A DNA stretch of 64,000 nucleotides from Candidatus Woesearchaeota archaeon (GCA_018668595.1 JABJCP010000009.1:62735-126734); one strand, 5' to 3'; numbered from the stretch's first letter, positions 47,855 to 64,000 are shown. A program made the numbers and translations. Notes: a model not told the origin generated them from the sequence alone.

Positions 47855-47909
47855 AAAAGTTAAACAAATTAAATTAAACAAATTAAATAATTGTGGATGG
47901 TGGTTTATT

Positions 47910-48170: not shown

Positions 48171-48242
48171 TTGAGTTGTTAAGCACAGGGATAATTAAGT
48201 AATTAATTATTGGATTTTTTATTAAAATTATTAGGTGGTATT

Positions 48243-49520: not shown

Positions 49521-49563
49521 CTCACTAAGAATTTGATTTTTTTCATTTTGAGGATTGACTAGA

Positions 49564-50253
49564 ATGGATAAGATAAAAAACAAATTGAAACAGGATCTTG
49601 ATAAAAAAAATAGGAGACATAATAGAAAAGCAAAACGTATGTCGACCAATATTTTATCAAAATTAAAAACAACAATACCTCCTCATAGAGAAATAACTAA
49701 TAAAAGTTCAAGAAGAATTATTGATGCGCTTAAAGAACAGTATAAACAGTATAATCAAGCAATTCTTGATGTTGGAGAAATTAGGGACGAGTATCAATTG
49801 CTTGTTAATGATGAGAGTGTTAGAAATCCATTTATTGTAAGTTCTGGTCTTGTAGATATAATAAGAAATGAAACTAAAAATTTAAATTCAAATGAAAAAA
49901 AAGCAAGACGCATTTATGATTGGATTGAAAAAAACATAGAGTATGGTAAAGGATTAAAAAAATATAGTAATTCTGAAGAAGTAATTAATCAGCGTCGGGG
50001 TGTTTGTGGTGAAATGGCTTTTGTATACGTCACAATGGCAAGATGCATTGGTTTAAAGTCTAGTTATGTTAGTGTAAGAAGAGATTATAGTGGAAAAAAA
50101 GTTCATCATGCTTGTGCTGTTGTGAGAACAGAAAGAGGTAATATTTTTGTTGATCCTGCATATCACACATATGATGTGAAACACAAGGATTACGAAGTAC
50201 TTAATGATGTTGAAGTTTTAGAAAGATTTAATCAATGGAGGGGAAGAGAATAA
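49564..50253 (+). CDS. Transglutaminase-like cysteine protease domain protein with N-terminal motif MDKIKNKLKQ
   Basis: The catalytic Cys motif is RRGVCGEMAFVYVTMARCIGL. The His/Asp part is HHACAVVRTERGNIFVDPAYH. Confidence 0.55.
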   Translation: MDKIKNKLKQDLDKKNRRHNRKAKRMSTNILSKLKTTIPPHREITNKSSRRIIDALKEQYKQYNQAILDVGEIRDEYQLLVNDESVRNPFIVSSGLVDIIRNETKNLNSNEKKARRIYDWIEKNIEYGKGLKKYSNSEEVINQRRGVCGEMAFVYVTMARCIGLKSSYVSVRRDYSGKKVHHACAVVRTERGNIFVDPAYHTYDVKHKDYEVLNDVEVLERFNQWRGRE

Positions 50254-50254
50254 A

Positions 50255-50737
50255 ATGAATGATAAAATTAAAGAGCATCTAAAATATGTCAATTTCCAAA
50301 AAAATAAAGAAACATTGTCATCCTCTCTAGATAATAAAGTCGAAGTTGAAGATATTGTTGTTAAAAAAAGATCGTTAAAACCAGGATTATTATATATTCA
50401 AATTGGTCAGTATGGAACTTTTCATAGTAAAGGCAAATACGAAGCGGATAATAATTCTCATAACGGTCTCGAAGTACATGTTTCAGATGGGGTGCATGAT
50501 TATTATTTAGTTACGGGCGTTTGTGAAGAAAGTGCAAAAGAAAAAAACCAGGGTTGTCCAGGAGTTTGTAAAATTAACCTGCCTGGCGGACATTATGCGG
50601 TAGAGACATCTTATAACGGACCTTATAAAAAAAAGATAACTGTGGATGGAGATACAAAATTATATATTCACATTAAGAGCAAGCTTAGAAAAAAATCTGT
50701 AAAGAGAGTTGAGACAGGAGATAAGAAAAATGACTGA
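50255..50737 (+). CDS. Hypothetical protein with N-terminal motif MNDKIKEHLK
   Basis: A member of the N-motif family. Confidence 0.4.
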   Translation: MNDKIKEHLKYVNFQKNKETLSSSLDNKVEVEDIVVKKRSLKPGLLYIQIGQYGTFHSKGKYEADNNSHNGLEVHVSDGVHDYYLVTGVCEESAKEKNQGCPGVCKINLPGGHYAVETSYNGPYKKKITVDGDTKLYIHIKSKLRKKSVKRVETGDKKND

Positions 50738-51194
50738 TAAAATAAAAGAAAAATTAAAAAGTGAAAAACCACCAGAACCAATACCTACTTATCAAAAAAA
50801 AGATATTCAATATATCTCGACACCAATAGATAAAAAAACAGATTTAGGAAAACTTGAAGTTATGGTTTGCAAAGATTTTATGGATTGGACAGGAGATATA
50901 AAATCAAGTAAAACTGTTAGAGATTTTATGAAAAACTTTGCAAGTGTAAAACCTGGAATTGTCGTCGAGGCAAAAAGTACTCACAACGAAAAAGATGTTT
51001 ATTATTTAAACACTAGGTGGGATGGTCGTTCTAAAGTAAAAATCCCTACAGGCAATTATACAATTACTGCAATACTTGATGATAAATCTTATAGTAATCC
51101 TTCTAAGCACGCCACTGTTTACAAAGGAAAAAAAACAGAAGTAACTTTCACCATAAAAAAAGAAGACTTTCAAATCGAAAAAAAATATACCTAG
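50730..51194 (+). CDS. Hypothetical protein with N-terminal motif MTDKIKEKLK
   Basis: ATG 50730 follows a CAGGAGA SD. The track used an upstream TTG. Confidence 0.4.
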   Translation: MTDKIKEKLKSEKPPEPIPTYQKKDIQYISTPIDKKTDLGKLEVMVCKDFMDWTGDIKSSKTVRDFMKNFASVKPGIVVEAKSTHNEKDVYYLNTRWDGRSKVKIPTGNYTITAILDDKSYSNPSKHATVYKGKKTEVTFTIKKEDFQIEKKYT

Positions 51195-51197
51195 AAA

Positions 51198-51608
51198 ATG
51201 ACAGATCCAATTTTAGAAAAACTAAAAGGAAATATTATTCCTAGTGAAGAACCAGTATTAAAAGATCCTTACAAACCAAATCCTGCTAATGTAGCTGTTG
51301 AAGTAAATACTATTGAAACTAAAGTTGGAGAATTATTTAGTTTTGAAAATACAACGCCTGTACATTGCAAACAAACTTTAATTTATGAAAAAGGACTTTT
51401 CGAACTTGTTAATATTGATAAATCTCCTGTTTTAATTAATGGAGAACTTGTTTGTGGTCCTGGTCCCATCCACAAATACAATTTCAAAGCTAAACAACTT
51501 GGGAACTATTGTATAACTTGTGCTGATATCGACGGGACAAATGGTATGATATATAATTTAAATGTTTATGAAATTAATATTGCTAAAATAGATAAAAAGA
51601 GGGGTTAA
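51198..51608 (+). CDS. Hypothetical protein with N-terminal motif MTDPILEKLK
   Basis: A member of the N-motif family. Confidence 0.4.
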   Translation: MTDPILEKLKGNIIPSEEPVLKDPYKPNPANVAVEVNTIETKVGELFSFENTTPVHCKQTLIYEKGLFELVNIDKSPVLINGELVCGPGPIHKYNFKAKQLGNYCITCADIDGTNGMIYNLNVYEINIAKIDKKRG

Positions 51609-52790: not shown

Positions 52791-54095
52791 ATGAATATTC
52801 CAAAAACAATTTTAGAGGATTTTAAACTTTGTGGAGAACCTTTTATTATTCGCTCTAATAGAATTTATACTTTAGAGTCTGCTCAAGGAGTATTTGACAA
52901 CAATGATTTTATTCAGTTTCTCGACAAAAAATATCCTTTGGAGAAATCTTTGTTAATTTCCAATTTAGAAAATCGTTATTTTTCTTTAAATGAAAAATAC
53001 ATTAATAGTTATTTGCAACACATCATTAAAAGAGATTATGTGAGTAAAGTAGAATCATCTCACGCAGCGTTGATTTCGCAGCACAATATTTATGAGCAAA
53101 ATAAATTATCTTCTGTTGAACATTTTATCAGATCGCAGGTTGTTCCACAATACGCAGAACTTGCTAAAGATTTTTTCCAGGTTAATTCAGATGTTCCTTC
53201 AAAGCCTAAAAAAATAAAAACTGTTAGTTCTGAAACATTTGATCCTGATATGTTTCGTTTTCCAGATATTTCTGATCTCTATTCAGAAAAAAGCATTCTT
53301 GAATCTGTGATGGGTTCATTTGTTAATTCAGATTTTATTTTTACTCTTGGTGGAAGATGCTATGTTTCGTCTACTTATGATAATTCTCCTTCAGAATTAG
53401 TAAAAATAAACAATAAAGTTCATTCATTAAAATATTTAAGTTCACTTAGTAATCTTGATAAGAATTATAAAACTGCAATAATCAGAAAGTTAAATTCTGT
53501 TGCAAAAAATCATGGAGAACAACTTATTCCTAAGATTCAAAAAAATTTAGATCAAATAAAAAATCTTGAATCTGCATTTGAGGTTCAAGATAAAACTGAT
53601 TTTGGTTCAATTGGTTACCAAAAAGTTAATAATGATAAATATAGAATTTACATTAATATAGTCCCTTTTATTGCTAAAATGAGGGGTAAATTTTTTCATT
53701 TTATAAAAACTAAAGTTGGAACTGATTTTTTAATTAAAAATAATTCTTTAGAAATTTTATCTGCACCTGTAGTTATTGAAAAAGAGCGCTATTATCATCC
53801 TTTTGTTAGTTCTAGTAATAGTATGTGTTATGGAGGTAATAAACGTTGGAAATTTACAGGTGTTGAGTTTTGTAAAAAGTATCATTTAGACTCAAAAGAA
53901 AATAGGCAAATTGCAGGTTATAAAGTCGCAGCAGTTTTGGCTGAAGGGTGGAAAGTTATTCATAGAGGGTATTTGAAATCAAATTCTCCAGATACTTATC
54001 ATCCCATATCTCATTTTCAAAATCGTGAAGTTTCAAAGCAAGCGGCAGATAATTTAGTAAACAGTGGTTTGAAACTTTATGTTCAGGATGAGTGA
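52791..54095 (+). CDS. E2/UBC-like protein, paralog 1, with a long N-terminal domain
   Basis: The C-terminal motif YYHPFVSSSNSMCYGG has the same H-P-x-[VI]-x5-[IM]-C spacing as the UBC active site HPNI-x5-IC. It is paralogous to 58413..59702. Confidence 0.45.
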   Translation: MNIPKTILEDFKLCGEPFIIRSNRIYTLESAQGVFDNNDFIQFLDKKYPLEKSLLISNLENRYFSLNEKYINSYLQHIIKRDYVSKVESSHAALISQHNIYEQNKLSSVEHFIRSQVVPQYAELAKDFFQVNSDVPSKPKKIKTVSSETFDPDMFRFPDISDLYSEKSILESVMGSFVNSDFIFTLGGRCYVSSTYDNSPSELVKINNKVHSLKYLSSLSNLDKNYKTAIIRKLNSVAKNHGEQLIPKIQKNLDQIKNLESAFEVQDKTDFGSIGYQKVNNDKYRIYINIVPFIAKMRGKFFHFIKTKVGTDFLIKNNSLEILSAPVVIEKERYYHPFVSSSNSMCYGGNKRWKFTGVEFCKKYHLDSKENRQIAGYKVAAVLAEGWKVIHRGYLKSNSPDTYHPISHFQNREVSKQAADNLVNSGLKLYVQDE

Positions 54096-54206
54096 GACAG
54101 TCTTATTAATCTTAATCACATCGTCGGAACTCTTTCGGTTTTTTCTACAAAACTCTTATTAAATAAATCTTCATAAAATCATTTAATAAAACAGGGGGCT
54201 AACAAA

Positions 54207-54626
54207 ATGAGCTTACTATATTTAAGATTAGACGCATCTTTTGCAGAGACTACAACTCTTGTGAAAAGAATTCCAGAATCAAAGCTTGACGAAACAATAG
54301 AGTCTCTTATTTTGTACATGTGTGATACTTCTCCAGATGTTCTTAATCCAGAACTAATAGATCATGCGAATAGTTGTTATTCTTTTAAAGAAGTTAGGTT
54401 GGCACAAAATATAGAAGATAGTATTGAAACAATTCAAGAAGACAACCCCGCATTTGTTTCGCCTTTAAAATTATATTCTCTTGTTGGGGATATTCCTGTT
54501 ATTATGGCATCTCACAAAACATTAGCAAATAAGTCTCTTGCAGAATATAAAAATAAAATCATAACAACAAAAAAATTAGATAATGAATCTTACAAAATAA
54601 TTGATTTGATATTAAAAACTGTTTAA
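54207..54626 (+). CDS. Ubl-like small protein, divergent copy with no C-terminal GG
   Basis: MSLLYLRLDASF...YMCDTSPDVLNPEL...SCYSFKEV aligns with the other small paralogs. Confidence 0.4.
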   Translation: MSLLYLRLDASFAETTTLVKRIPESKLDETIESLILYMCDTSPDVLNPELIDHANSCYSFKEVRLAQNIEDSIETIQEDNPAFVSPLKLYSLVGDIPVIMASHKTLANKSLAEYKNKIITTKKLDNESYKIIDLILKTV

Positions 54627-54638
54627 GGTGGTTGGAAA

Positions 54639-55709
54639 ATGAATGAAATTAAAAAACTTGAAACTGTAATTGGCACAGAAGATGTTAAACTTAATGAAGA
54701 ATCTGTAATTGAAGATTTATTCGAACAGACAGGTAATTTTTTTAATGATGTGTTTATTAAAAGTAGGGTTGGGCCAAATACTAAATTAAATCATAAAAAA
54801 ATATCATCAAATAAATATTCTATTTCGATAGATTTAGAAGATTATATTCTTAAGAAGAATGATAGATATTTTAAGTTTGATAAAGTGACAATTGGCTTAG
54901 ATATTTTATTTGATAAAGAGTCAATTCAATTTTTAAGAGCTACTAAAATTAAATTAGGAAAAAAATATGATCATCCTTTTGTATTTAATGATAATTCTAT
55001 TTGTTATGGGGGTGGCTTAAGGTGGAGACTTGTTGGTGTTGATTTTGGAAAAAAATATTCTATTAAAACAGATGAAGAAAAAAATAATGCTGCTTGGAAA
55101 ACCTGTCTTGTTTTAACAGAAGGTGCTAAGGTGCTACACGAAGTACATGGTGATCAAGTCATACCTGTTAATAATTTAATGAATAGATTTTCTGATAGAG
55201 AAATATGTAAAAACAAAGCAGAATTATCTGGTTTAATTATTTATGGTGCTGAATCATCAACTAAAAAAACTCAGGAGTTACCTAACTCTAGTAATTTATA
55301 TATTAGATTGGACGGAGCTTTTGCAAACAAAGTTATTCTTGCAAAACGAGTTCCTGAAACAATTTTATCAGAGCCGTTGGATGAGGTTATTAGGTATATG
55401 TGTAATCCGACTTCGGATGAATTGAATGAAGAGCTCGAGGATAATCCTAGTAGTTGTTATACTGAACAAGAAGTTAGCACTGCGAAATTATTTCAAGAAG
55501 CATTTGATGAAGGAATTAATTCTCCGAATAAATCATTCGAGGTTCAGGCAATTAGTGTCGACGGAAATTCGCTGATTTATCTTGGCAGAGATGCTGATTT
55601 GAAAACTGTAACTCTCGATTCTAAACGTAGTGAAATTCTTATGGAAGAACATATCGATGAAGGAAATTATAATTTGATTGATCTTAAAGGAACTTATGTT
55701 AGTTGTTAA
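54639..55709 (+). CDS. Fusion protein with an E2/UBC-like core followed by a C-terminal Ubl-like domain
   Basis: The N-terminal part carries KYDHPFVFNDNSICYGGGLRWRLVGVDFGKKY. The C-terminal part (NLYIRLDGAFANKVILAKRVPET...) is about 80% identical to the free Ubl paralogs and ends ...DLKGTYVSC. Confidence 0.45.
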   Translation: MNEIKKLETVIGTEDVKLNEESVIEDLFEQTGNFFNDVFIKSRVGPNTKLNHKKISSNKYSISIDLEDYILKKNDRYFKFDKVTIGLDILFDKESIQFLRATKIKLGKKYDHPFVFNDNSICYGGGLRWRLVGVDFGKKYSIKTDEEKNNAAWKTCLVLTEGAKVLHEVHGDQVIPVNNLMNRFSDREICKNKAELSGLIIYGAESSTKKTQELPNSSNLYIRLDGAFANKVILAKRVPETILSEPLDEVIRYMCNPTSDELNEELEDNPSSCYTEQEVSTAKLFQEAFDEGINSPNKSFEVQAISVDGNSLIYLGRDADLKTVTLDSKRSEILMEEHIDEGNYNLIDLKGTYVSC

Positions 55710-55713
55710 TAAA

Positions 55714-56643
55714 ATGACTCGCGCTGCTATTTTAATCGGATCGTTGGAAAGTTTTCAAAAAGAGGAGTTTGCAGATCCTATGAAAGAATCTTTTGCAAAG
55801 ATTGGACTCGATTCAATTATTGTACCCTTAAATAAAATAGAAGAGTTAAATAAAGTAGATATTGTTTATACTCTGCCTCATAGTATTCAGGTTGATCTTT
55901 CGTTCTTAGATGAAAAAAATATTCCTATTATTAATTCGCATAGGTCTCATTCGCTTTCTAAAAATAAAATGGAAAGTAGTGATGTATTTATCAAAAATAA
56001 TATTCCAACTCCGGATACTATAACAACAGATTCTCAAGATGAATTAATTAATTTCATAAATAAACACAATAAAATTATTTTGAAGCAACCTGATATTTGT
56101 GCAGGCTATGGGCACATGATTGTTGAAAAAATCAATAACAATTATTTTGCATGGAATAATGATTCAAAAGGCGAGTTTGATTTTTCAAATCCTAATTTTG
56201 TTAAAGCAAATAAACGAGTTTTTGCACAGCCGTATTATGCACAAGATTTTATTTCTGATTTTAATCCTGATAATATTGTGTCTGTTTATAGAGCATATGT
56301 TATCGGAAATAATGTTCCTATGGCAACTGCAAGAGTTGGTAAAGATCAGCCCATTGTTAATGTTGCAAGGGGTGCACATTATGAATTTGTTACTCCTGAT
56401 AAAAAAATGAAAGAAATTGCATTAAAGACTGCAGATAGTATTGGTTTTGAAGTTGGAGTTGTTGATTTATTAAAAGATAAAAATCAAAATTATTTTGTTA
56501 TTGAATGCGATTGCGATGGTCTTACATTAGTTGTTTGTAGAAAGTTTAGAAAATTGAAAGAGTTTGAAGATAAATATGATTTTGATCAGCACATTGGCAG
56601 AAGATTAATTGAAATTGTAAATGGAGAATCTTATAGAACTTGA
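55714..56643 (+). CDS. ATP-grasp ligase (RimK-like)
   Basis: ILKQPDICAGYGHMIV fits vvKP..GS.G.GV. YRAYVIGNNVPMATARVGKDQPIVNVARGA fits the RimK D.Rv.vvG...a..R......tN...Gg pattern. EVGVVDLL...YFVIECD is also present. Confidence 0.55.
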   Translation: MTRAAILIGSLESFQKEEFADPMKESFAKIGLDSIIVPLNKIEELNKVDIVYTLPHSIQVDLSFLDEKNIPIINSHRSHSLSKNKMESSDVFIKNNIPTPDTITTDSQDELINFINKHNKIILKQPDICAGYGHMIVEKINNNYFAWNNDSKGEFDFSNPNFVKANKRVFAQPYYAQDFISDFNPDNIVSVYRAYVIGNNVPMATARVGKDQPIVNVARGAHYEFVTPDKKMKEIALKTADSIGFEVGVVDLLKDKNQNYFVIECDCDGLTLVVCRKFRKLKEFEDKYDFDQHIGRRLIEIVNGESYRT

Positions 56644-56650
56644 TTATTTC

Positions 56651-56779
56651 CTCGTCGGAACTCTTCCGCTTTTTAACATACAACCCTTATTAAATTCAAT
56701 ATTGCGTTTATATTTGTTTAGTGGGAGAACTTAAATTAAAAAGTAAAAATACATCTAAACTAGATTGAGATATACAAAA
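56651..56779 (+). promoter_or_regulatory. Conserved ~130-bp promoter/5'-leader module (copy 1) upstream of a Ubl gene, with three palindromes
   Basis: It contains CGGAActcTTCCG and TTTAGtgggagaaCtTAAA (imperfect in this copy), then CATCTAaacTAGATt immediately 5' of the start codon. Confidence 0.45.
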
Positions 56780-57205
56780 ATGAAAAATTTATACATTAGA
56801 TTAGACGGAGCTTTTGCAGATAAAGGCGTTCTTGCAAAAAAAGTTAGTGAGAATTTACTTTTAGAAACATTAGATACTGTTATTATGTGTATGTGTGACT
56901 CTACTCCTGATGAGTTTAATCATGAATTAGCTGAGAATCCTGGTAGTTGTTATACTGCGCAGGAAGTTAGAAAAGCCGAACTTATTGAAGAAGCACTAGA
57001 CGATGGACTTAATTATTGTATTACTGTTAAGGTTGATGCGCTTAGTGTAGGCGGAAATTCTTTAGTAGAACTTGGAAGAAATGGTGAACTAAGAACTGCT
57101 ACAATTGCCGATAAGAAAAATGAAATTCTTAGAAAACTTGATCTTGATGGTAAACAATATTATATTGTAGATCTTAAGATGTCTTATTTATGCCCTGGGG
57201 GTTAG
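56780..57205 (+). CDS. Ubl-like small protein ending in a free Gly-Gly (…YLCPGG*)
   Basis: It begins MKNLYIRLDGAFADKGVLAKKV and ends at stop TAG directly after GG. The start at 56780 was chosen by alignment with the paralogs; the track used an upstream TTG. Confidence 0.5.
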   Translation: MKNLYIRLDGAFADKGVLAKKVSENLLLETLDTVIMCMCDSTPDEFNHELAENPGSCYTAQEVRKAELIEEALDDGLNYCITVKVDALSVGGNSLVELGRNGELRTATIADKKNEILRKLDLDGKQYYIVDLKMSYLCPGG

Positions 57206-57216
57206 ATTCAAGTATC

Positions 57217-57350
57217 TCCTCGGAATCCTTCCGAATTTTAACACGTAATCATTATTAAATTCAATATTGATTTTATACTTATTTAGGGGGAAAACCTAAA
57301 TTATATGTAAAAAATAAAAATACATCTAAACTAGATGGATGCATATGAAA
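57217..57350 (+). promoter_or_regulatory. Promoter/5'-leader module, copy 2
   Basis: It contains CGGAAtccTTCCG, TTTAGGgggaaaaCCTAAA and CATCTAaacTAGATG (57323..57337). Confidence 0.45.
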
Positions 57351-57803
57351 ATGGAAAATTTATACATTAGATTAGACGGAACATTTGCAGATAAAGTTGT
57401 TTTTGCAAAACGAGTTTCTGAAACAATTTTATCAGAGCCGTTGGATGAGGTTATTAGGTATATGTGTGATTCTTCTCCTGATGATTTAAATAAAGAAATT
57501 GAAATAGATTATTGTTTTGATATGAATCAAGATTACATCAAAGACAGTGGTTATACAGCGCAGGAAGTTAATAATGCAAATATTATTGAACATTTTTTGA
57601 ATCAAGATATTAGATCGGACAATATTTGTGCAGAAATTCATGCTATTAGTAAGGATAAAAATTCGCTTGTTTATTTAGGTAAAACAAACAAGCTTAAAAA
57701 TGTTAATCTTGCTTCAAAAAAAAAATATTTGTTACAAAAAGAAAAAATAGGTGGCGAAAATTATTTCATTATTGACCTTAAGTTTAATTTGCTTTGCATG
57801 TAG
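57351..57803 (+). CDS. Ubl-like small protein with a divergent C-terminus (…LLCM*)
   Basis: It begins MENLYIRLDGTFADKVVFAKRVSETILSEPLDEVIRYMCD. The start was aligned to the paralog starts. Confidence 0.45.
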   Translation: MENLYIRLDGTFADKVVFAKRVSETILSEPLDEVIRYMCDSSPDDLNKEIEIDYCFDMNQDYIKDSGYTAQEVNNANIIEHFLNQDIRSDNICAEIHAISKDKNSLVYLGKTNKLKNVNLASKKKYLLQKEKIGGENYFIIDLKFNLLCM

Positions 57804-57842
57804 ATTGCAAGGTTTAGTATACTGCAGTTTTATTACTCTCTC

Positions 57843-57976
57843 CTCGGAACTCTTCCGCTTTTTAACACACAATCCTTATTAAATTCAATATAACATTTAT
57901 ACTTATTTAGGGGGAGAACCTAAATTATATGTAAAATAAGTAAAAATACATCTAGATTAGATGGAGGTATATAAAA
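57843..57976 (+). promoter_or_regulatory. Promoter/5'-leader module, copy 3
   Basis: It contains CGGAActcTTCCG, TTTAGGgggagaaCCTAAA and CATCTAgatTAGATG (57949..57963), followed by a GGAGG SD. Confidence 0.45.
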
Positions 57977-58411
57977 ATGGGAAATCTATACGTTAGATTG
58001 GATGGAGCTTTTGCAAACAAAGTTGTTCTTGCAAAAAAAGTTCCTGATACAAAGTTATCAGAACCGCTCGAAGATGTTATTAGGTATATGTGTGATCCAA
58101 CTCCGGACGCATTAAATGAAGCGCTTGCAGATAATCCTGGTAGTTGTTATACTGCGCAAGAAGTTAGCAATGCATCTTTGATTGAAGAAGCTTTAGAAGA
58201 TGGGCTTAATAGTGAGAATTCTTCGTTTGAAGTTCAAGCAGTTAGTCTTGACGGTAATTCAATGGTTTATCTTGGCAAGGATAATGAATTAAGAAGTGCA
58301 AATATAGCATCTAAGCAAAACGATATTCTTAGAGACGAAAATTTTGATGGAGAGGTTTACAAGCTTGTAGATCTTAAAGGAGTTTATGTTGGAGTTGGTG
58401 GTAAACTTTAA
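57977..58411 (+). CDS. Ubl-like small protein ending GG-KL (…VGVGGKL*), a precursor-like C-terminus
   Basis: It begins MGNLYVRLDGAFANKVVLAKKVPDTKLSEPLEDVIRYMCDPTPD. A GGAGG SD lies upstream. Confidence 0.5.
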   Translation: MGNLYVRLDGAFANKVVLAKKVPDTKLSEPLEDVIRYMCDPTPDALNEALADNPGSCYTAQEVSNASLIEEALEDGLNSENSSFEVQAVSLDGNSMVYLGKDNELRSANIASKQNDILRDENFDGEVYKLVDLKGVYVGVGGKL

Positions 58412-58412
58412 A

Positions 58413-59702
58413 ATGCAAAATTTAAATACTTTTTTAAATAGTTTTAAGCTCGCTGGAGAACCTTTTTTTATTAGAGGTGACAGGCTCTATACTTTAGAGC
58501 TTTCAAATGGTTTTTGTAACAGCGAGCAGTTTTTATCTTTAATGGAGCGAAAATATCCTCTAGAAAGATCAGTTGATATTAGCAATCTGGAGTATACCTC
58601 TTTTCTCAAACAAAAAAATTCAATTTTAAATTTTATGGAAAAACACATTAGAAATAATTTTATCAGTAAACTTGAAAGTTCAGAAAAAAAGGTAATTCGT
58701 GCAAGTGGTTTGTATGAACAAAATAGACTTTCTTCTATTGAACGATTTATTCGTGAAAAAATAATTCCTGAATATGCTGAAGTTGCAAAGCGTTTTTTAG
58801 ATGATAAATCAATAAAAACACCTAACCTTATAAAAAAAGTTTCAAAGGTTAAAGCAGAATCTTTTGATGTTAATAGTTTTGTTTGGCCAGGTATTGAAGA
58901 CTTAAAATCAGATATTAGTAGGTTGGATAAAATAATTGAAAAAGAAGGCGTTTTAATTGTTGGTGGTCGCTGTTATTCTGCATCTCGTTCAAAATCAAAA
59001 TCTTTATCTGATTATGTTAAAGCTGGAAGTTCTTTTTATAGTTTAGATTATATGTGTTGTGTTGATGAATTGGATAAAATTTACAAACAAGAATTAGTTA
59101 AGTTTTTTCAAGATACTTCAAATAAGCAGGGTAATATTTTAGTTCCTTTAATTAAGCAAAATAACCAAAAATTATCTAACTTAACAGATGCTGTTAATAA
59201 ATCTGTTGATCAAAAATTTGGAAATATTGGTTATAAGTGTGTTAGTGAACATAAGTATCAAATTTTTCTTAAGTTTAATCCGTTTATTATAAAAAAAGAT
59301 GATCAATACTATAAATTTCCTGAATTAAAATTAGGAACTGATTTAATTATCAAGAACAATATGCTTGAAATTGTAGCAGCACCTCAAGTTTTGGGTTCTA
59401 AACCATATCTTCATCCTTTTGTTTGGTCTGATAAACGCATTTGTTATTCTGGTGATACTAAACGTTGGCATTTTATAGGTATCGATTTTGGAAAAAAATA
59501 TCCTATAAATTCTGAACAAAATCAAAATGATGTTGCTTGGAAAGTCGCATTAGCTCTTTCAGAGGGTTTTAAGGTTATTCATAAAGGATATATTGGAAAT
59601 AAAATTATTCCTGTTAATAACTTACATTCTAGTTGTAAGTCTCGCAAAATTTCTTATTCAGAAATATCGCCCTCAAAATTAAAGGTGTATAACAATGATT
59701 AA
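58413..59702 (+). CDS. E2/UBC-like protein, paralog 2
   Basis: It carries YLHPFVWSDKRICYSGDTKRWHFIGIDFGKKY. The N-terminus MQNLNTFLNSFKLAGEPFFIRGDRLYTLE aligns with 52791 (MNIPKTILEDFKLCGEPFIIRSNRIYTLE). Confidence 0.45.
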   Translation: MQNLNTFLNSFKLAGEPFFIRGDRLYTLELSNGFCNSEQFLSLMERKYPLERSVDISNLEYTSFLKQKNSILNFMEKHIRNNFISKLESSEKKVIRASGLYEQNRLSSIERFIREKIIPEYAEVAKRFLDDKSIKTPNLIKKVSKVKAESFDVNSFVWPGIEDLKSDISRLDKIIEKEGVLIVGGRCYSASRSKSKSLSDYVKAGSSFYSLDYMCCVDELDKIYKQELVKFFQDTSNKQGNILVPLIKQNNQKLSNLTDAVNKSVDQKFGNIGYKCVSEHKYQIFLKFNPFIIKKDDQYYKFPELKLGTDLIIKNNMLEIVAAPQVLGSKPYLHPFVWSDKRICYSGDTKRWHFIGIDFGKKYPINSEQNQNDVAWKVALALSEGFKVIHKGYIGNKIIPVNNLHSSCKSRKISYSEISPSKLKVYNND

Positions 59703-60969
59703 TAAAAACAATAACAAATATGGTTCATCAAACAATAGTATAGATGAAGAAATTCAAAAACTTATAGGACCTATTAGAATTACTCGTGAAGCATTAGAAA
59801 AAGGTAAATTAATTGCAAAGCGTACTTGTGATATTGCAAAAAAATTTAATCTTGGAACTTTAGAAATTTATTTGTATAATCTTAATCCTATTGATAAACA
59901 AGAAAAAGGCGATTATGCTATTAGAGATTTGTACATTGCACATGAGCAAACTGTTTCTGCTATTAATTGCGAGGTTGGTGCTCAAGGTCAAATAATGTCC
60001 CGAGATATAGCTTATCAAGAGCATAATATGTATACTATTGGTTGGTCTCATTCTCATGGAGATCTAGGGGTTTTTGTTTCAGGAACTGATGATAATAATA
60101 CTAAAAATGTTGTCAAATTTTTAGGAATAGCGTCAGGGATTGATTTATTGGAAGAGTGTGGTTCAATTAATTATGAGAATATGGAAAACAAAATTACTTT
60201 TTTAGATGGATCGCAGTATTTTATTAGTGCAGAAACATCAAAAGATAAAGAGCTTGTTGAAGGTTTATTTGAAACTATTTTAAAATCAAATCCGTTAACA
60301 ATTCATACAAAGAAAAAAAAGTTTTTTAATTGGACTCCTAGTTTTGTTTTTAATTCTAAAGGAGATTTTCATCCTTTTATGGCATATTATTTAGATAGAA
60401 ATATGATGTTGGTTGATGGTTGTTCTTATGAAATTTTGGAGGAGAATAATGGCATATGTCTTGATCCGCAAGTTATTGATGAGGAAATAATTACTCGAGT
60501 TAGAGAACTCAACTTCATTAAAAATAAAAAAACGCCAGAAACTAAAAAAACTCAATCAAAATTGTACAATTTATTTTTTAAAAAAGCTGAAGAATTTGAC
60601 AAGAATCATGATAAACTCAAAGAGTATATTAAAAATAAACAGAATTCTAACCGTACTTCTAAACGAGAGTGGAAAAAAGAATCTGGTTTATCTAAAAACA
60701 TTCAAGAATCTGTTGTTGAAATGGGTGATCTTTTAGATCATTGTGAAAATGAGTTAGGGACAAATATTAGTGATGATGAACTTGCTAAAATAAAACAAGT
60801 TTATCTTGCAAGGCAGCAGCAGATTAAAGAAGCTCAACCATTAATAGAACAAAGAATTGATTCACTTTGTAATGAAGCTAACTCTCGTAATTATGTTAAG
60901 AACCACGGGTTGATTGATATGTATGAATCTATTTTAAAAAATTCTTTAGGAGGAGATATTGATGCCTAA
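59695..60969 (+). CDS. JAMM/JAB (MPN+) metallopeptidase
   Basis: The full JAMM motif E…HSHGDLGVFVSGTD (HxHx7Sx2D) is present. Confidence 0.6.
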   Translation: MINKNNNKYGSSNNSIDEEIQKLIGPIRITREALEKGKLIAKRTCDIAKKFNLGTLEIYLYNLNPIDKQEKGDYAIRDLYIAHEQTVSAINCEVGAQGQIMSRDIAYQEHNMYTIGWSHSHGDLGVFVSGTDDNNTKNVVKFLGIASGIDLLEECGSINYENMENKITFLDGSQYFISAETSKDKELVEGLFETILKSNPLTIHTKKKKFFNWTPSFVFNSKGDFHPFMAYYLDRNMMLVDGCSYEILEENNGICLDPQVIDEEIITRVRELNFIKNKKTPETKKTQSKLYNLFFKKAEEFDKNHDKLKEYIKNKQNSNRTSKREWKKESGLSKNIQESVVEMGDLLDHCENELGTNISDDELAKIKQVYLARQQQIKEAQPLIEQRIDSLCNEANSRNYVKNHGLIDMYESILKNSLGGDIDA

Positions 60970-62509
60970 TGAAGTTATTGCAGATATTAATAATCGTAAT
61001 CATTTAGCATGGAGTATTGATAAATCTATTAATATGGATTATTCAAAAAAATTAGCTGATTTAGAAAAAAATAAAACTGGTTTAAGTCAAGGGGTTTACG
61101 ATCAAAAGAAATTAGGTTTATTAGAAGAAAAAAAAGCAGAGTTAAGCAAGCTAGGAGAAGAAAGAATAAATTTATTAAATAATTTAAAAATAATGGTTCT
61201 TGGTTCAGGACCTCTTGCGCAATTTGTTAGCGGAGGGTTAATGGGTTTAGGTATTGGAACTATTTATGTCGTCGGTAATGAGATTGTTTCACGAAATGAT
61301 AGTTATGATTTTTTAGTAACTAAAGAATCAAATCTTGGAAAATCAAAAGTAGACGAAATTGTGGCTAGGATGAACGAAATTAATGATTATAATAATTTTG
61401 TTCCTGTTTTTTCAAGATTTAGTTCTGCTTTAACTAATTCATTTTATCCTTCGGATATGATTATTGATGCGACAAACTCGTCTGTTTCAAAAAATAAAGT
61501 TTTGAGATATTGTATTGATAACAAGATTCCTTTAATTTCTGCATCATCTAGTTTTAGAAATTCAAGAGTTTCTTCTTACAAACCAAACTCTGCACCTATT
61601 AGACTTAAAGATTCAGTTAATTTGGAAGCAGTTATTCACCAAGAACTTGATGGTCTTTCTCAAGACATTGTGAGTTCTGGAATTATTGCAGGAATTATTT
61701 TAGAGGAAGTTAGAAAGCAAAAGTTTTCTATGTCAAAAACAGATTTTCCTCTTAAAAATTTTCAAGTTGTAAATTATAATCCTTATTCTAAAACAAGAAA
61801 TAATAAGTTGAGAGATCTACCCAAATGTGCTAAAACTTATGCAAATAAACGTGTTTTAGTCGCAGGAGCAGGAGCGCTAGGTAATTTTGTTGCAATGGAA
61901 CTTGCTTTGTTAGGGGTTGGACAATTGGATATTTTAGATATGGATTCTGTTGAGGTTTCAAATCTTAATCGTCAAATTAATTTTGATAAGTCAAATATTG
62001 GTAAGGAATACAAAAAAGCAACAGTTCTTTTTGATCGTTTAAAAAAATTAAATCCATCTATTAATGGAACTGGAATAGTTGCAAAACTTGAAATGACTTC
62101 GGATAATTTGATTAAAGAAGGCAACTATGATGTTTTACTTGGTTGTTTTGATAATAAGATTGCAAGACAAACTTTAGATCATTTTGCGGAAAAATATAAT
62201 ATTCCTTATGTTGACGGAGGTTGTTCGACAAACGCAGGCCAGGTTGTTTCATTTATTCCTGGTTATAACCAGAAGGTCACTGAACAGGTTAATTTTCCAG
62301 ATCCTTCTAATAGTGGTAATCAGGTAGGTTGTGCTATTGTAGCTCAAGCTAATCCTAGTATTATTACTTCAAATGCAATTATTGGCAGTGCAACTGTTGC
62401 AGAGGCTTTAAAGATTTTATCAGGGCAAAATTATGGGGATGTTGGAGGTTCTTTTAACTATCGTAGTAATTCTCCTGACCGTATTTGGTTGGATCCTTAT
62501 GTTCCTTAA
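60959..62509 (+). CDS. E1-like (ThiF/MoeB/UBA) activating enzyme with tandem Rossmann domains (N-terminal degenerate, C-terminal active)
   Basis: The N-terminal domain reads IMVLGSGPLAQFV with no SNLNRQ. The C-terminal domain reads RVLVAGAGALGNFVAMELALLGVGQLDILDMDSVEVSNLNRQ. GGCSTNAGQV lies downstream. Confidence 0.65.
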   Translation: MMPNEVIADINNRNHLAWSIDKSINMDYSKKLADLEKNKTGLSQGVYDQKKLGLLEEKKAELSKLGEERINLLNNLKIMVLGSGPLAQFVSGGLMGLGIGTIYVVGNEIVSRNDSYDFLVTKESNLGKSKVDEIVARMNEINDYNNFVPVFSRFSSALTNSFYPSDMIIDATNSSVSKNKVLRYCIDNKIPLISASSSFRNSRVSSYKPNSAPIRLKDSVNLEAVIHQELDGLSQDIVSSGIIAGIILEEVRKQKFSMSKTDFPLKNFQVVNYNPYSKTRNNKLRDLPKCAKTYANKRVLVAGAGALGNFVAMELALLGVGQLDILDMDSVEVSNLNRQINFDKSNIGKEYKKATVLFDRLKKLNPSINGTGIVAKLEMTSDNLIKEGNYDVLLGCFDNKIARQTLDHFAEKYNIPYVDGGCSTNAGQVVSFIPGYNQKVTEQVNFPDPSNSGNQVGCAIVAQANPSIITSNAIIGSATVAEALKILSGQNYGDVGGSFNYRSNSPDRIWLDPYVP

Positions 62510-62522
62510 GTAGGTGTGTTTT

Positions 62523-64000
62523 ATGGCGAAGAAAAAAAAAAATAATCTAAAACAGGGAAAAAAAGTAGGAAAAAATAGAACGGAATTGTCTAAAAAAAAA
62601 AGAAAGCCATTTGAAAATAAATTAGATAAACTCAATAAACCTTTTTCAGAAGACAGTTCTTCGCAAGAACTTTCGTTACACAAAGATTATTCTAAACTAG
62701 ATTGGTTTTCTTTAAATGAGAAATTTGAATATGAACTTAATAAACTAGATATAAACCCTATTAATATGGAATTATTTAATTATGTTAGATCTGATTTATA
62801 TTGTGTTAAATCTGAATTAATAAATAGGAATTTAAGCAGTAGAGTAATTCTTGATAGAAATTATGATTTGGAATTGTTAATTAAAAAAGAGATTAAGCCA
62901 AAAGTTACTATTGATATTACTGATGATTCAATTGAAAAAAGCAAATTAATTGCAAAAAAACTCGTCGATCTTGGTAAAGCAGCAGGTTTAGGAAAGAATG
63001 AGATATATTTGGCAGGAGTTTGTGATAAATCCAACTATGATAAAGATGATTTTATTGTTGAGGATATTTATATTGTTCCTGATCAGGTTTGCTCTAATGA
63101 GCGATGCGAATTTCCAAGTACGGGCAAGTTTAAAATGCTTGATGAGTTGGATAAATTAAAAAAAGTTCCGATTATGTGGATTCATTCTCATTGTGATGAT
63201 ACTTATTTTTCTCCTGACGATAAAGATAATTTATTTAATCTGGTCAGATTTGATGGTTTTCTAAAAGAGTTGTCTTATGAATTATTGGATGAAAAATCGA
63301 GTTTAATTTTCAAATGTTATCCTGCAATTGTTGTTTCAGGAATAAATGATGCTGAAACTTTTGGAGTGCAGTTATTAAGAAAACCAAAAATTTATGACAA
63401 AGATTCTAAAAAAATATCTGAGATTAAAGAAAAATCCACAGTATTATTGACTGGGGCAGATATTTCAGTAAACATTCATAAGTTGGATGTTAAAATTAGT
63501 TTAGATGAAATTTTAATTCAAAAAGAATTGGTAAATAAAGTTACAATTAAAAGATATAATTCTATTCATAAATTATCTGATTATTATGATTGCAATCTAA
63601 AATTAATAAATTCTGCTGAACCAAAATATGTCGAAGAGCCGTCTACAAAAATTAAGGATAGTTTGGCTAATAGAGATGGGCAAAGAGCTCAACAAAAAGC
63701 ACAAGAAGAAAAAGTAAAAACATCAGGCATTCTTGGTAGATTAAAATCTGAACCTGTTGATGAAATTTCTGATTCAAGTTCATATGAACATACTGTTGCA
63801 ATTATTAAAAAAGACTTGCCAATATGTAGTGCTAATTCAGATTTAGTTAATGAAATTAAAAAACCTCGGGATGAATATTATGTTGGAGATTCATTTAAAA
63901 TTACGCATATTGATGTGAATAGGGGTTCTTTTGTTTTTAATAATAAAGAGTATTTCCTAAAATTCGATAATGAAAATATTAAACCATTTTTAGATTTATT
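62523..64000 (+). CDS. Second JAB/JAMM-like protein, 3'-truncated by the window edge and absent from the ORF track; paralogous to 59695 in its N-terminal region
   Basis: Manual translation gives MAKKKKNNLKQG... with EIYLAGVCDKSNYDKDDFIVEDIYIVPDQ and WIHSHCDDTYFSPDD (HxH-x6-S-x2-D). It shares IT.e..EK.KLIAK...LG..EIYL with the first JAB. An AGGTG SD lies upstream. Confidence 0.5.
   Translation, partial: MAKKKKNNLKQGKKVGKNRTELSKKKRKPFENKLDKLNKPFSEDSSSQELSLHKDYSKLDWFSLNEKFEYELNKLDINPINMELFNYVRSDLYCVKSELINRNLSSRVILDRNYDLELLIKKEIKPKVTIDITDDSIEKSKLIAKKLVDLGKAAGLGKNEIYLAGVCDKSNYDKDDFIVEDIYIVPDQVCSNERCEFPSTGKFKMLDELDKLKKVPIMWIHSHCDDTYFSPDDKDNLFNLVRFDGFLKELSYELLDEKSSLIFKCYPAIVVSGINDAETFGVQLLRKPKIYDKDSKKISEIKEKSTVLLTGADISVNIHKLDVKISLDEILIQKELVNKVTIKRYNSIHKLSDYYDCNLKLINSAEPKYVEEPSTKIKDSLANRDGQRAQQKAQEEKVKTSGILGRLKSEPVDEISDSSSYEHTVAIIKKDLPICSANSDLVNEIKKPRDEYYVGDSFKITHIDVNRGSFVFNNKEYFLKFDNENIKPFLDL

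What the first reader, a model, noticed from the sequence alone, without database searches (positions are those of the whole stretch)
52791..64000. Composite ubiquitin-like conjugation locus: 3 E2-like, 5 Ubl-like (two ending in GG), E2-Ubl fusion, ATP-grasp ligase, tandem-domain E1 and two JAB peptidases
Eleven co-directional genes together encode a full Ubl toolkit. (1) The E1-like protein carries the ThiF/E1 signature GAGALGNFV...DMDSVEVSNLNRQ. (2) Two proteins carry JAMM motifs (HSHGDLGVFVSGTD and HSHCDDTYFSPDD). (3) Three proteins have the C-terminal motif HP[F]V-x5-[IM]-C, which reproduces the spacing and flavour of the UBC catalytic motif HPNI-x5-IC. (4) Five ~140-aa paralogs start with a beta-strand (NLYIRLDGAF) and end with a beta-strand plus, in two copies, Gly-Gly (…LCPGG* and …VGVGGKL*), mirroring ubiquitin/ISG15 termini and precursor processing. 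The combination resembles eukaryotic Ub cascades and the recently described bacterial Bil/Bub-type antiviral Ubl systems. The domain architecture here (a paralog expansion of Ubl genes, an E2-Ubl fusion, an ATP-grasp ligase) does not match any operon I can name from memory.
Basis: partly seen in the sequence, partly recalled or inferred. Interest (0 to 1): 0.9.

Follow-up and report, generated by a model that had tools for sequence, protein, structure and literature searches.

The report
Archaeal ubiquitin-like tagging gene cluster
A tiny DPANN archaeon carries a duplicated gene cluster for attaching a ubiquitin-like protein to other proteins, built around a ubiquitin-carrier (E2) family that no database recognises but that looks most like the eukaryotic enzyme.

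Summary
Eleven co-directional genes at 52791-64000 of a Candidatus Woesearchaeota (DPANN) genome encode:
- a tandem-domain ThiF/E1;
- two JAMM peptidases with complete motifs;
- a RimK-like ATP-grasp;
- three paralogs of an unannotated HPFV-x5-[IM]-C domain;
- five paralogs of a ~140-aa protein, two of them with C-terminal Gly-Gly.

A confident model of the small protein (pLDDT 86.5) matches only ubiquitin-type beta-grasp folds.

The HPFV...C domain defines a family of about 172 clusters with no Pfam, NCBIfam or PADLOC hit. Its profile finds almost only UBC E2 enzymes in the PDB, with its invariant Cys aligned on their catalytic Cys (hhalign probability 79%, shuffled controls below 1%). The structure model of this domain was poor, so the fold itself is unconfirmed.

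The ancestral core is Ubl-E2like-JAB-E1-JAB (57977 to about 64046). The same cassette recurs in Woesearchaeota, Nanoarchaeota and other archaeal MAGs, and the Ubl there nearly always ends in GG plus a short tail.

The locus also extends upstream, to a conserved helical protein and a transglutaminase-like protein that share a Lys-rich N-terminal tag.

Verdict: a new archaeal variant of E1-E2-Ubl-DUB conjugation systems, Bil-like in gene order but not a Bil or Bub member.

The parts
57977..58411 (+). G: Ubl precursor (144 aa). Single beta-grasp with a helical insert; ends ...VGVGG-KL. First gene of the ancestral core cassette.
58413..59702 (+). H: E2-like protein (429 aa; the ORF opens at 58386). 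Family-specific N-terminal domain of about 215 aa plus a C-terminal E2-like core with HPFVWSDKRIC (H334, C344).
   Evidence: Family of 172 representatives. Motif conservation. Profile versus PDB hits mostly UBC E2s. hhalign probability 73-79% with shuffled controls below 1%. The model is poor, so fold evidence is inconclusive.
59695..60969 (+). I: JAB/JAMM metallopeptidase 1 (424 aa); E57, H119-S-H121, S129, D132.
   Evidence: Prok-JAB 2.4e-4, below the Pfam cutoff. Motif residues invariant in 9 homologs. Family profile hits the Caldiarchaeum Rpn11-like protein at 1.3e-7.
60962..62509 (+). J: E1 (515 aa). N-terminal degenerate (inactive-type) adenylation domain plus a C-terminal active ThiF domain (GAGALGN, NLNRQ). 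The crossover loop is short (about 27 aa) and holds the conserved Cys457. There is no CYS domain and no Zn-site cysteines.
   Evidence: ThiF 2.6e-59 in two stretches. Best PDB sequence matches are UBA2, ThiF, UBA1 and MoeB. Alignment of 18 homologs. Cys conserved in 18 of 18.
62523..64000 (+). K: JAB/JAMM metallopeptidase 2 (507 aa in full; ends about 46 nt beyond the window). HSHCDDTYFSPDD, with a one-residue-shorter HxH-to-S spacing.
   Evidence: Translation. Full length from L001. Aligned with I and 7 homologs, with E, HxH, S and D invariant.
52791..54095 (+). A: second full-length E2-like paralog (434 aa, 39% identical to H); H336, C346.
54207..54626 (+). B: divergent Ubl paralog (139 aa) without GG. 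Its TAA stop is followed in frame by GGT GGT.
54639..55709 (+). C: fusion of an E2-like core (aa 1 to about 205; H112, C122; no N-terminal domain) with a Ubl paralog (aa about 216-356, ends ...YVSC, no GG).
   Evidence: It is the only E2-like-Ubl fusion among the family members retrieved.
55696..56643 (+). D: RimK-family ATP-grasp ligase (315 aa). Its start overlaps the end of C.
   Evidence: PF08443 1.9e-12. NCBIfam MptN, RimK and LysX hits, all below equivalog cutoffs. A 35%-identical homolog lies directly upstream of the Ubl in Nanoarchaeia locus L022.
56780..57205 (+). E: Ubl paralog (141 aa) ending exactly in ...CPGG, that is, already in mature form.
57345..57803 (+). F: Ubl paralog (152 aa) with an extra insert; ends ...LLCM, no GG.
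56651..56786 (+). Repeated intergenic unit. A CGGAACTCTTCCG hairpin plus T-run is followed by A/T-rich TATA-like boxes and a GGAGG-like ribosome-binding site. Copies also lie at 54121-54164, 57216-57351 and 57840-57975, one upstream of each free-standing Ubl gene.
   Evidence: Direct-repeat families D3 and D6. Terminator-like hits at 56656 and 57845. Alignment.
48243..49520 (+). X: conserved helical protein (425 aa) with the N-terminal tag MADVIKNKLK. It accompanies the cassette in at least 6 other lineages.
   Evidence: tblastn hits next to the cassette in L004/5, L012, L017, L018, L019 and L022. No Pfam, NCBIfam or PDB match.
49564..50253 (+). Transglutaminase-like (papain-fold Cys-His-Asp) protein with the N-terminal tag MDKIKNKLK.
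   Evidence: PF01841 3.1e-14. Homologs at 40-53% identity next to the cassette in L004/5, L018, L020 and L022.
46535..51608 (+). Run of six genes that all begin with the tag M-x-[DN]-x-I-[KL]-x-[KH]-L-K. Starts are at 46535, 48243, 49564, 50255, 50730 and 51198.
   Evidence: A regex scan found the tag only at ORF N-termini of these genes. It also found it on neighbours of the cassette in L003, L004/5, L012 and L019.

Best explanation
This is a ubiquitin-like protein conjugation system of DPANN archaea, amplified in this genome.

Proposed mechanism, with each step marked as shown or inferred:
1. Ubl precursors with GG plus a tail (G: GG-KL) are trimmed by a JAB peptidase (I or K) to expose Gly-Gly. 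E is encoded already mature. (Inferred from the conserved GG-plus-tail and the two JAMM genes.)
2. The single-chain pseudo-dimeric E1 (J) adenylates the Ubl C-terminus in its C-terminal active domain. (The domains and motifs are shown; the activity is inferred.)
3. The Ubl is probably passed to the invariant Cys457 in the short crossover loop. (Inferred.)
4. The Ubl moves to the invariant Cys of the E2-like domain (H C344, A C346, C C122). This domain is a divergent UBC relative with HPF in place of HPN. (Homology is supported at profile level; the thioester is inferred.)
5. No E3 is encoded. The family-specific N-terminal domain of about 215 aa on A and H is the candidate for docking targets or the E1, as proposed for Bil E2s. 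(Inferred.)
6. The JABs also reverse conjugation. (Inferred.)

The ancestral cassette is G-H-I-J-K. Genes A-F are lineage-specific duplications that give three E2-like and five Ubl modules.

Conserved neighbours are candidate partners or substrates:
- helical protein X;
- the transglutaminase-like protein;
- the ATP-grasp;
- the small proteins that share a Lys-rich N-terminal tag.
For: - E1: ThiF 2.6e-59 in two stretches. Best solved relatives are UBA2, ThiF and UBA1. A crossover-loop Cys is conserved in 18 of 18 homologs.
- JABs: full JAMM motif invariant. Profile hit to the Caldiarchaeum Rpn11-like protein at 1.3e-7, then other DUB-type JAMMs.
- E2-like: 172 representatives with a near-invariant HPF...C.
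- E2-like versus PDB: 20 of 25 and 14 of 17 profile hits are UBC E2s, aligned at PxV..HPxV..G.IC..RW.
- E2-like versus canonical E2s: hhalign probability 73-79%, E about 1e-5. The 40 column-shuffled controls reach at most 0.8%.
- Synteny: Ubl directly upstream of the E2-like gene in 11 of 14 verified genome loci, E1 present in 9, JAB in 7. The same holds in L003-L009.
- The full order X, transglutaminase-like, ATP-grasp, Ubl, E2-like, JAB, E1, JAB occurs in L022.
Against: - The individual PDB E-values for E2s are marginal (0.18-2), and only about 57 columns align.
- The HPN asparagine is absent.
- No Pfam UQ_con or Prok-E2 hit in 46 members.
- No E3 was identified.
- Three of five Ubl paralogs lack GG.
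- The window's E1 lacks the Zn-site cysteines found in most homologs.
- No biochemical data exist.
Confidence: 0.72

Rival explanations
1. This is an E1-only (SAMP/Urm1-type) tagging or sulfur-carrier system. The E1 activates the GG-ended beta-grasp protein and the JABs process or remove it. The HPF...C proteins are not E2s; they are adaptors, targets or an unrelated Cys enzyme.
For: - The E2 fold is not confirmed structurally.
- Asn of HPN is missing.
- E1 sequence similarity to ThiF, MoeB and UbaA is substantial.
- Archaeal SAMP systems work without an E2 (established knowledge; PMC2948915, listed but not read here).
Against: - The Cys is invariant and aligns with the E2 catalytic Cys. The profile similarity is specific to UBC enzymes and far above shuffled controls.
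- The protein always sits between the Ubl and the JAB/E1, as BilB does.
- The tandem inactive-plus-active E1 is a hallmark of E2-using systems (10.1101/2023.09.26.559546).
- The NCBIfam UbaA, ThiF and MoeB equivalog cutoffs are not reached.
Confidence: 0.15
2. The biological role is antiviral defence, as for bacterial Bil, Bub and CBASS-Cap2. The Ubl would be conjugated to virus proteins, and the paralog expansion would reflect an arms race. This rivals a housekeeping or regulatory role.
For: - All characterised prokaryotic E1-E2-Ubl-JAB operons outside Caldiarchaeum and Asgard act in phage defence (PMC11601603 and PMC11601596).
- Gene order is Bil-like.
- Paralog amplification and a population variant at the motif His (H112N in C) hint at diversification.
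- Distribution is patchy: 14 hits among 185,579 species genomes for one motif pattern.
Against: - There are no PADLOC hits other than the generic E1 domain.
- Neighbours are housekeeping genes: GAPDH, adenylosuccinate synthetase, inositol monophosphatase, tRNA synthetases, chaperones.
- No mobile-element genes or compositional anomaly.
- Conserved co-encoded partners (X, transglutaminase-like; AAA+ unfoldases in a sister branch) suggest endogenous targets.
Confidence: 0.25
3. Much of the cluster is decaying duplication. Only G-H-I-J-K (plus E) is functional. B, F, the Ubl part of C, and perhaps A and C themselves are non-functional relics.
For: - B, F and C lack GG.
- B is the most divergent (34-37% identity).
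- B's stop lies just before in-frame GG codons.
- C lacks the N-terminal domain.
- A strain variant of C changes the motif His.
Against: - All ORFs are intact, with conserved core residues (25 invariant columns among the five Ubls).
- Each free Ubl gene keeps its own conserved promoter and terminator-like unit.
- A and C keep HPFV...C and other family-conserved positions.
- Identical gene sets occur in two further assemblies.
- Ubl domains without GG are common as non-conjugated adaptors (established knowledge).
Confidence: 0.2

Closest known systems
Type II BilABCD (bacterial ISG15-like) operons
   Same: - Same four activities in the same gene order: Ubl, E2, JAB, E1.
- The Ubl is made as a precursor that the JAB trims.
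[quoted passage not shown]
- No E3 is encoded.
- Some Bil Ubls are likewise a single beta-grasp with N-terminal or other additions.
(10.1101/2023.09.26.559546; PMC11601603.)
   Different: - The host is archaeal (DPANN).
- The E1 has no ~80-aa CYS domain, only a ~27-aa crossover loop with one conserved Cys.
- The E2-like protein belongs to a different, unannotated family, with an extra ~215-aa N-terminal domain and an HPF...C motif.
- Its profile hits eukaryotic-type UBCs, not BilB.
- BilD is not among the 60 best of 70 PDB sequence hits of the E1.
- This locus adds a second JAB, multiple Ubl and E2 paralogs, an ATP-grasp, a transglutaminase-like protein and protein X.
Caldiarchaeum subterraneum / Asgard eukaryote-like Ub operon (Ub, E1, E2, RING E3, Rpn11-like)
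   Same: - It is archaeal.
- The JAB family's best solved match is the Caldiarchaeum Rpn11-like protein (6fjv, 1.3e-7).
- The E2-like motif resembles canonical UBC (HPxV-x5-IC...RW).
- The E1 is closest to UBA2 and UBA1 adenylation domains.
   Different: - No Pfam ubiquitin, UQ_con or RING hits.
- The Ubl is 140 aa with a helical insert.
- The E2-like protein is three times the size of a UBC.
- No E3 gene.
Bub (6E/DUF6527) operons
   Same: - Ubl/E2 fusions exist in both (BubAB is Ubl-E2; here C is E2-Ubl).
- A JAB processes a precursor.
- Ubl architectures are diverse.
   Different: - Bub uses Ser (E2) and Tyr (E1) oxyesters and always has the DUF6527 serine protease BubE. Here Cys is invariant in both the E1 loop and the E2-like domain, and no DUF6527 is present.
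- The fusion order is reversed, so the Ubl C-terminus is free but lacks GG.
Archaeal SAMP / UbaA / HvJAMM1 sampylation
   Same: An archaeal beta-grasp modifier with GG, a ThiF-type E1 and a JAMM deconjugase.
   Different: - SAMP systems have no E2 and a single-domain homodimeric E1.
- UbaA NCBIfam score is 93 against a cutoff of 450.
- The genes here form a dedicated cassette that includes an E2-like protein.
RimK / LysX / MptN ATP-grasp ligases (for gene D)
   Same: ATP-grasp domain above the Pfam RimK threshold. These enzymes add amino acids to, or ligate, a C-terminal or side-chain carboxylate.
   Different: - All equivalog scores are far below cutoff.
- The context next to Ubl genes is conserved in L022.
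- The substrate is unknown.

Membership tests
E1-E2-Ubl conjugation systems (generic kind) | Modifier with a ubiquitin-type beta-grasp fold and a C-terminal Gly-Gly (mature or after processing) | tested here: met
E1-E2-Ubl conjugation systems (generic kind) | E1 with a ThiF-type adenylation domain (GxGxxG, NLNRQ Arg, Asp) | tested here: met
   PF00899 2.6e-59 against a cutoff of 28.1 bits. Motif residues invariant in 18 homologs.
E1-E2-Ubl conjugation systems (generic kind) | E1 catalytic cysteine | tested here: inconclusive
   A Cys 5-8 residues before the PS motif of the crossover loop is present in 18 of 18 homologs. Its catalytic role is not testable here.
UBC-fold E2 enzymes | UBC alpha/beta fold: helix, four-strand meander, active-site loop, crossover helix | tested here: inconclusive
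UBC-fold E2 enzymes | Catalytic Cys about 8 residues after the HPN motif, with detectable sequence relationship | tested here: met
   The invariant Cys aligns to the catalytic Cys of Rad6, UBE2D2 and UBC9. UBCs make up 20 of 25 and 14 of 17 PDB profile hits. hhalign probability 79%, E 1.5e-5, against at most 0.8% for 40 shuffles.
UBC-fold E2 enzymes | HPN triad with Asn | tested here: not met
   The motif is HPF (rarely HPL, HPI or HPV) throughout the family.
UBC-fold E2 enzymes | Match to Pfam UQ_con or Prok-E2_A-E models | tested here: not met
   No such family at E <= 1 in 46 members, nor in A, C or H.
Bil (BilABCD) | Operon of Ubl, E2, JAB and E1 | tested here: met
   The order G-H-I-J here matches the order in L004, L006-L008, L012 and L022.
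Bil (BilABCD) | E1 with inactive domain, active domain and a mobile ~80-aa CYS domain | tested here: not met
   The inactive and active domains are present (two ThiF stretches). The crossover loop is only about 27 aa, with no inserted domain.
Bil (BilABCD) | Sequence membership of the E2, Ubl and E1 in the Bil families | tested here: not met
   No BilA or BilB among the PDB profile hits. BilD is not among the 60 best PDB hits of the E1. PADLOC gives only the Cap2-type E1 domain.
Bil (BilABCD) | Anti-phage function through conjugation to virion proteins | not testable with these tools
   No experimental data. The context is housekeeping.
Bub (6E/DUF6527) | DUF6527 (BubE) serine protease in the operon | tested here: not met
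   No PF20137 hit in any protein of the locus.
Bub (6E/DUF6527) | E2 with catalytic Ser and E1 with Tyr, neither with Cys | tested here: not met
   Cys is invariant in the E2-like domain and in the E1 loop.
CBASS type II Cap2/Cap3 | E2-E1 fusion next to a CD-NTase and an effector | tested here: not met
   PADLOC E1-E2 models match only residues about 215-420 of J, the E1 part. No CD-NTase is present in the locus.
SAMP/UbaA sampylation | UbaA-type E1 equivalog, and no E2 | tested here: not met
   NF047750 scores 93 bits against a cutoff of 450. An E2-like gene is present.
JAMM/MPN+ deubiquitinase-type peptidases | E...HxHx7Sx2D zinc site | tested here: met
   E57, H119, H121, S129 and D132 are invariant in 9 sequences. 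K has x6 spacing. Profile hits Rpn11-like, BRCC36, CSN5 and AMSH. The Pfam Prok-JAB score for I (21.4) is below the cutoff of 25, while homologs in L006-L008 have the precomputed hit.
RimK-family ATP-grasp | ATP-grasp domain above the family threshold | tested here: met
   PF08443 47.7 bits against a cutoff of 21. Membership in any NCBIfam equivalog (MptN, LysX, RimK) is not met.

The most novel reading that the evidence does not exclude
DPANN archaea (Woesearchaeota and Nanoarchaeota) carry a previously unrecognised, self-contained ubiquitin-like system. Three of its components are new sequence families:
- a ~140-aa Ubl;
- a ~430-aa E2 with HPF...C;
- a Rpn11-like JAB.
The E2 is closer in its active-site signature to eukaryotic/archaeal UBC enzymes than to any bacterial E2.

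In this genome the system has diversified into several Ubl/E2 pairs, a small-scale parallel to the eukaryotic Ub, SUMO and NEDD8 radiation. It may act on a dedicated set of co-encoded proteins marked by a Lys-rich N-terminal tag (M-x-D-K-I-K-x-K-L-K). In sister lineages it is coupled to AAA+ unfoldases.
Probability: 0.35. Interest if true: 0.8.

Novelty: new variant of a known kind. Interest (0 to 1): 0.66.

Why it matters
Complete E1-E2-Ubl-DUB cascades in archaea have so far been tied to Caldiarchaeum and Asgard lineages, and in bacteria to phage defence.

Here is a conserved cassette in genome-reduced DPANN archaea with an unannotated E2 family that carries a UBC-like active-site signature. 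That widens the known distribution of E2-dependent tagging. It also gives a new outgroup for tracing how UBC enzymes and single-chain E1s arose.

The system is compact and could be reconstituted from five genes.

Two features offer concrete, testable leads on substrates and on how specificity evolves without an E3:
- the paralog expansion;
- the co-encoded proteins carrying the N-terminal tag.

Tried and rejected
- Word-indexed homolog searches with H and G returned only the query itself.
The 3-sequence alignment then gave a poor E2-like model.
- The search for related loci failed on three alignments for lack of a conserved stretch. With A7 it found no relatives in genome contigs. A hand-made degenerate DNA pattern worked instead.
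- The afdb50 fold library was unavailable.
- Sequence profiles of the Ubl, of X and of the first 7-sequence E2-like alignment gave no meaningful PDB matches.
- Cluster look-ups gave no organism names.
- Rfam found nothing in 46000-64000.
- The sigma-70 promoter scan was uninformative: the host is an archaeon and the counts were below the shuffled mean.
- I considered stop-codon read-through or an ancestral Ubl-GG-E2 fusion for B and C, because TAA is followed in frame by GGT GGT TGG AAA ATG. I rate it unlikely. TAA is a strong stop, GGTGGT sits where a Shine-Dalgarno site for C is expected, and neighbouring genes have GGAGG- or GGGGG-like sites at the same distance.
- I considered a phage or mobile-element origin. 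It is rejected on the housekeeping neighbours and the flat composition.
- Literature searches found no paper on a DPANN E2-type system in the held library. This does not prove that none exists.

Full report
**Source and setting.** The E1 of the window is 100% identical to a protein that NCBI annotates as a hypothetical protein of Candidatus Woesearchaeota archaeon. It is found on contigs of up to 677 kb. The window has 28-32% G+C throughout and no tRNA genes. Its other genes are cellular: GAPDH, adenylosuccinate synthetase, inositol monophosphatase, Fe-S ATPases and a block of Ser/Thr kinases. The finding therefore lies in the chromosome of a DPANN archaeon, not in a virus or an obvious island.

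**Checking the observation.** The ORF list, translation of the last 1.6 kb and gene calls on two other assemblies of the same organism confirm eleven co-directional genes, A-K.
- Pfam assigns J to ThiF (2.6e-59, two stretches) and D to the RimK ATP-grasp (1.9e-12). It gives I a sub-threshold Prok-JAB hit.
- A, C and H share a C-terminal domain of about 210 aa with invariant Y..HPFV..x5..[IM]C.
- B, E, F, G and the C-terminal 140 aa of C are paralogs with 25 invariant columns.
- E ends in GG and G in GGKL. B, F and C stop just before that position.
- K is cut by the window end and is 507 aa in full.

**The HPFV...C proteins.** An exhaustive HMMER search with the three window paralogs found 172 cluster representatives at E <= 1e-3, 92 of them at E <= 1e-10. 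Most are 410-445 aa, and the motif HPF[VI]-x5-7-[ILV]C is almost always present. None of 46 members hits any Pfam family convincingly, and A, C and H hit nothing in PADLOC or NCBIfam.

The profile evidence points to E2 enzymes:
- A 46-sequence profile searched against all PDB sequences returned 25 hits at E <= 10, and 20 were UBC E2 enzymes (Rad6/UBE2A/B, UBE2D2, UBC9, UBE2W). All aligned over 'PxV..HPxV..dGsIC....RW', with the family's invariant Cys on the catalytic Cys.
- An independent 42-sequence full-length profile gave 14 E2s among 17 hits.
- With a 104-sequence alignment it gave probability 79%, E 1.5e-5, score 36.9 over 57 columns spanning strands 2-4, the HPN position and the Cys. Forty column-shuffled controls reached at most score 16.4 and 0.8%, and the reversed profile 0.3%.

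I conclude that this is a divergent UBC-related domain with a probable catalytic Cys. Two differences stand out. Phe replaces the HPN Asn, and most members carry a conserved N-terminal domain of about 215 aa of unknown fold. Stand-alone cores of about 180 aa also exist.

**E1 and JABs.**
- J's C-terminal half is a standard active adenylation domain, and its best solved relatives are UBA2, ThiF, UBA1 and MoeB. Its N-terminal half is a second, degenerate Rossmann domain lacking NLNRQ. This is the inactive-plus-active arrangement described for BilD and eukaryotic E1s (10.1101/2023.09.26.559546).
- J has no inserted CYS domain. A crossover loop of about 27 residues carries one Cys, conserved in all 18 homologs. 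The window's E1 has lost the CxxC and CxC zinc ligands that most homologs keep.
- I and K, aligned with seven homologs, share invariant E, HxH, S and D. The family profile matches the Caldiarchaeum Rpn11-like protein (1.3e-7), then BRCC36, Rpn11, JAMM1, CSN5 and AMSH.

**Conserved context.** Contigs carrying E1 homologs show the same cassette.
- L004/L005 carry X, a transglutaminase-like gene, a 254-aa gene, Ubl, E2-like, JAB, E1, JAB and a second Ubl-like gene.
- L006, L007 and L008 carry an AAA+ ATPase, Ubl, E2-like (one to three copies), JAB and E1.
- L003 carries JAB, E1, JAB and homologs of the two genes that follow K.

A degenerate DNA pattern for Y-x-HPFV-x3-G-x-IC, scanned over one genome per GTDB species, gave 19 hits. 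Fourteen of these encode true family members at E <= 1e-30. They are Woesearchaeota (2), Nanoarchaeota/Nanoarchaeia (4), archaeon GW2011_AR15, and records titled 'uncultured Methanosarcinales' (6). Four of those six are only 29-35% G+C and one is 20%, so their labelling needs checking. In these 14 loci the Ubl lies directly upstream of the E2-like gene in 11, an E1 is present in 9 and a JAB in 7, within windows of 8 kb or less.

tblastn with the window's flanking proteins showed:
- homologs of X next to the cassette in L004/5, L012, L017, L018, L019 and L022;
- the transglutaminase-like protein in L004/5, L018, L020 and L022;
- an ATP-grasp 35% identical to D directly upstream of the Ubl in L022, whose order is X, transglutaminase-like, ATP-grasp, Ubl, E2-like, JAB, E1, JAB.

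G-H-I-J-K is therefore the ancestral core here. The ATP-grasp, X and the transglutaminase-like protein are recurrent accessories. A, B, C, E and F are local duplications. Each free Ubl gene carries a copy of a ~136-nt upstream unit with a hairpin-plus-T-run and A/T-rich boxes.

**Mechanism.** See Best explanation: JAB trimming, adenylation by the active E1 domain, probable thioesters on the E1 loop Cys and then the E2-like Cys, and transfer to targets without an E3.

The domain identities, motifs, beta-grasp fold, GG tails and synteny are shown. All chemical steps are inferred.

The biological role is open.
- Housekeeping neighbours and conserved co-encoded partners favour an endogenous regulatory or proteostatic role. 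In the L006-L008 branch an adjacent PAN-like or ClpX-like AAA+ ATPase suggests that tagging feeds an unfoldase.
- Precedent from Bil, Bub and CBASS keeps antiviral defence alive as a rival.

**Comparison with known systems.** The system works like Type II Bil in gene order, precursor processing, E1 architecture and lack of an E3. It fails Bil membership because it has no CYS domain and its E2, Ubl and E1 belong to different families. It is not Bub, because it has no DUF6527 and keeps Cys rather than Ser and Tyr (PMC11601596). It is not Cap2/Cap3, and it is not SAMP/UbaA. Its E2-like signature and its JAB are closest to eukaryote/archaeal-type machinery. I found no description of it in the searchable literature, and no curated model recognises the E2-like, Ubl, X or JAB2 proteins.

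**Verdict.** This is a real, coherent locus. It is a new archaeal variant of a known kind of system, and of clear interest to people working on the evolution of ubiquitin signalling.

Noticed in passing
window 46535, 48243, 49564, 50255, 50730, 51198 (gene starts); L001:10305; L003:3793; L004:4262, 5322; L012:2992(-); L019:7477(-): Six consecutive genes upstream of the cassette, and the 324-aa gene downstream of K, begin with the same Lys-rich peptide, M-x(0-2)-[DN]-x-I-[KL]-x-[KH]-L-K (for example MTDKIKEKLK). The transglutaminase-like protein has a second copy about 26 aa in. The tag recurs on cassette neighbours in four other lineages. In roughly 400 kb scanned it was found only at ORF N-termini. 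It may be a recognition or acceptor tag or a targeting peptide.
   Followed up: partly
window 54121-54164, 56651-56786, 57216-57351, 57840-57975: A conserved intergenic unit of about 136 nt precedes each free-standing Ubl gene (B, E, F, G). It consists of a CGGAACTCTTCCG hairpin plus T-run, then TTATTAAAT and TTTATA-like boxes, then a GGAGG-like site. This implies that each Ubl copy has its own terminator and promoter. There is no Rfam match.
   Followed up: partly
window 54618-54641: B's TAA stop is followed in the same frame by GGT GGT TGG AAA and then the ATG of C (…LKTV*GGWKM…). This could be a remnant of a Ubl-GG-E2 precursor, or simply the ribosome-binding site of C. I judged the second more likely.
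   Followed up: partly
window 54972-54974 (codon 112 of C) versus P0066: A database variant of the E2-Ubl fusion C differs from the window copy at a single residue out of 356, and that residue is the His of the HPF motif (H112N).
   Followed up: partly
L012:5778-6308: In a Woesearchaeota genome a second, short E2-like gene right after the full-length one has Asp in place of the invariant Cys (HPFVYDNGSIDYDGG). This is a UEV-like, presumably inactive partner.
   Followed up: no
L006:3549-5057, L008:139-1647, L007:6365-7513: In a more distant branch of the cassette an AAA+ ATPase lies immediately upstream of the Ubl gene. It is PAN/proteasomal-ATPase-like in L006 and L008 and ClpX-like in L007. 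This hints at coupling of tagging to unfolding or degradation.
   Followed up: partly
L001:10305-11279 and 11339-13978 (just beyond the window end); L003:3793-6604: Two further co-directional genes follow K and are conserved in L003. One is a 324-aa protein with the N-terminal tag. The other is an 879-aa, largely helical protein ending in a Gly/Ala-rich hydrophobic C-terminal anchor. Neither has a family match.
   Followed up: partly
L004:6100-6864; L007:12524-13480: Proteins adjacent to the cassette have a DxSxG-type motif and, in L004, a weak vWA hit (PF25106, E 0.024). They may be vWA-like partners.
   Followed up: no
window 12490-26455 and 40360-41472: Five tandem large genes (738-1096 aa) each carry a C-terminal eukaryote-type Ser/Thr kinase domain; one of them also has HEAT repeats. 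A sixth, smaller kinase with a weak DnaJ hit lies further on. This is an unusual kinase expansion for a small DPANN genome.
   Followed up: no
L014, L017, L018, L020, L021, L026: Six verified cassette loci come from records titled 'uncultured Methanosarcinales archaeon'. Four are only 29-35% G+C, one is 20% and one is 56%. This could reflect mis-binning or mislabelling, an extrachromosomal element, or genuine spread beyond DPANN.
   Followed up: no
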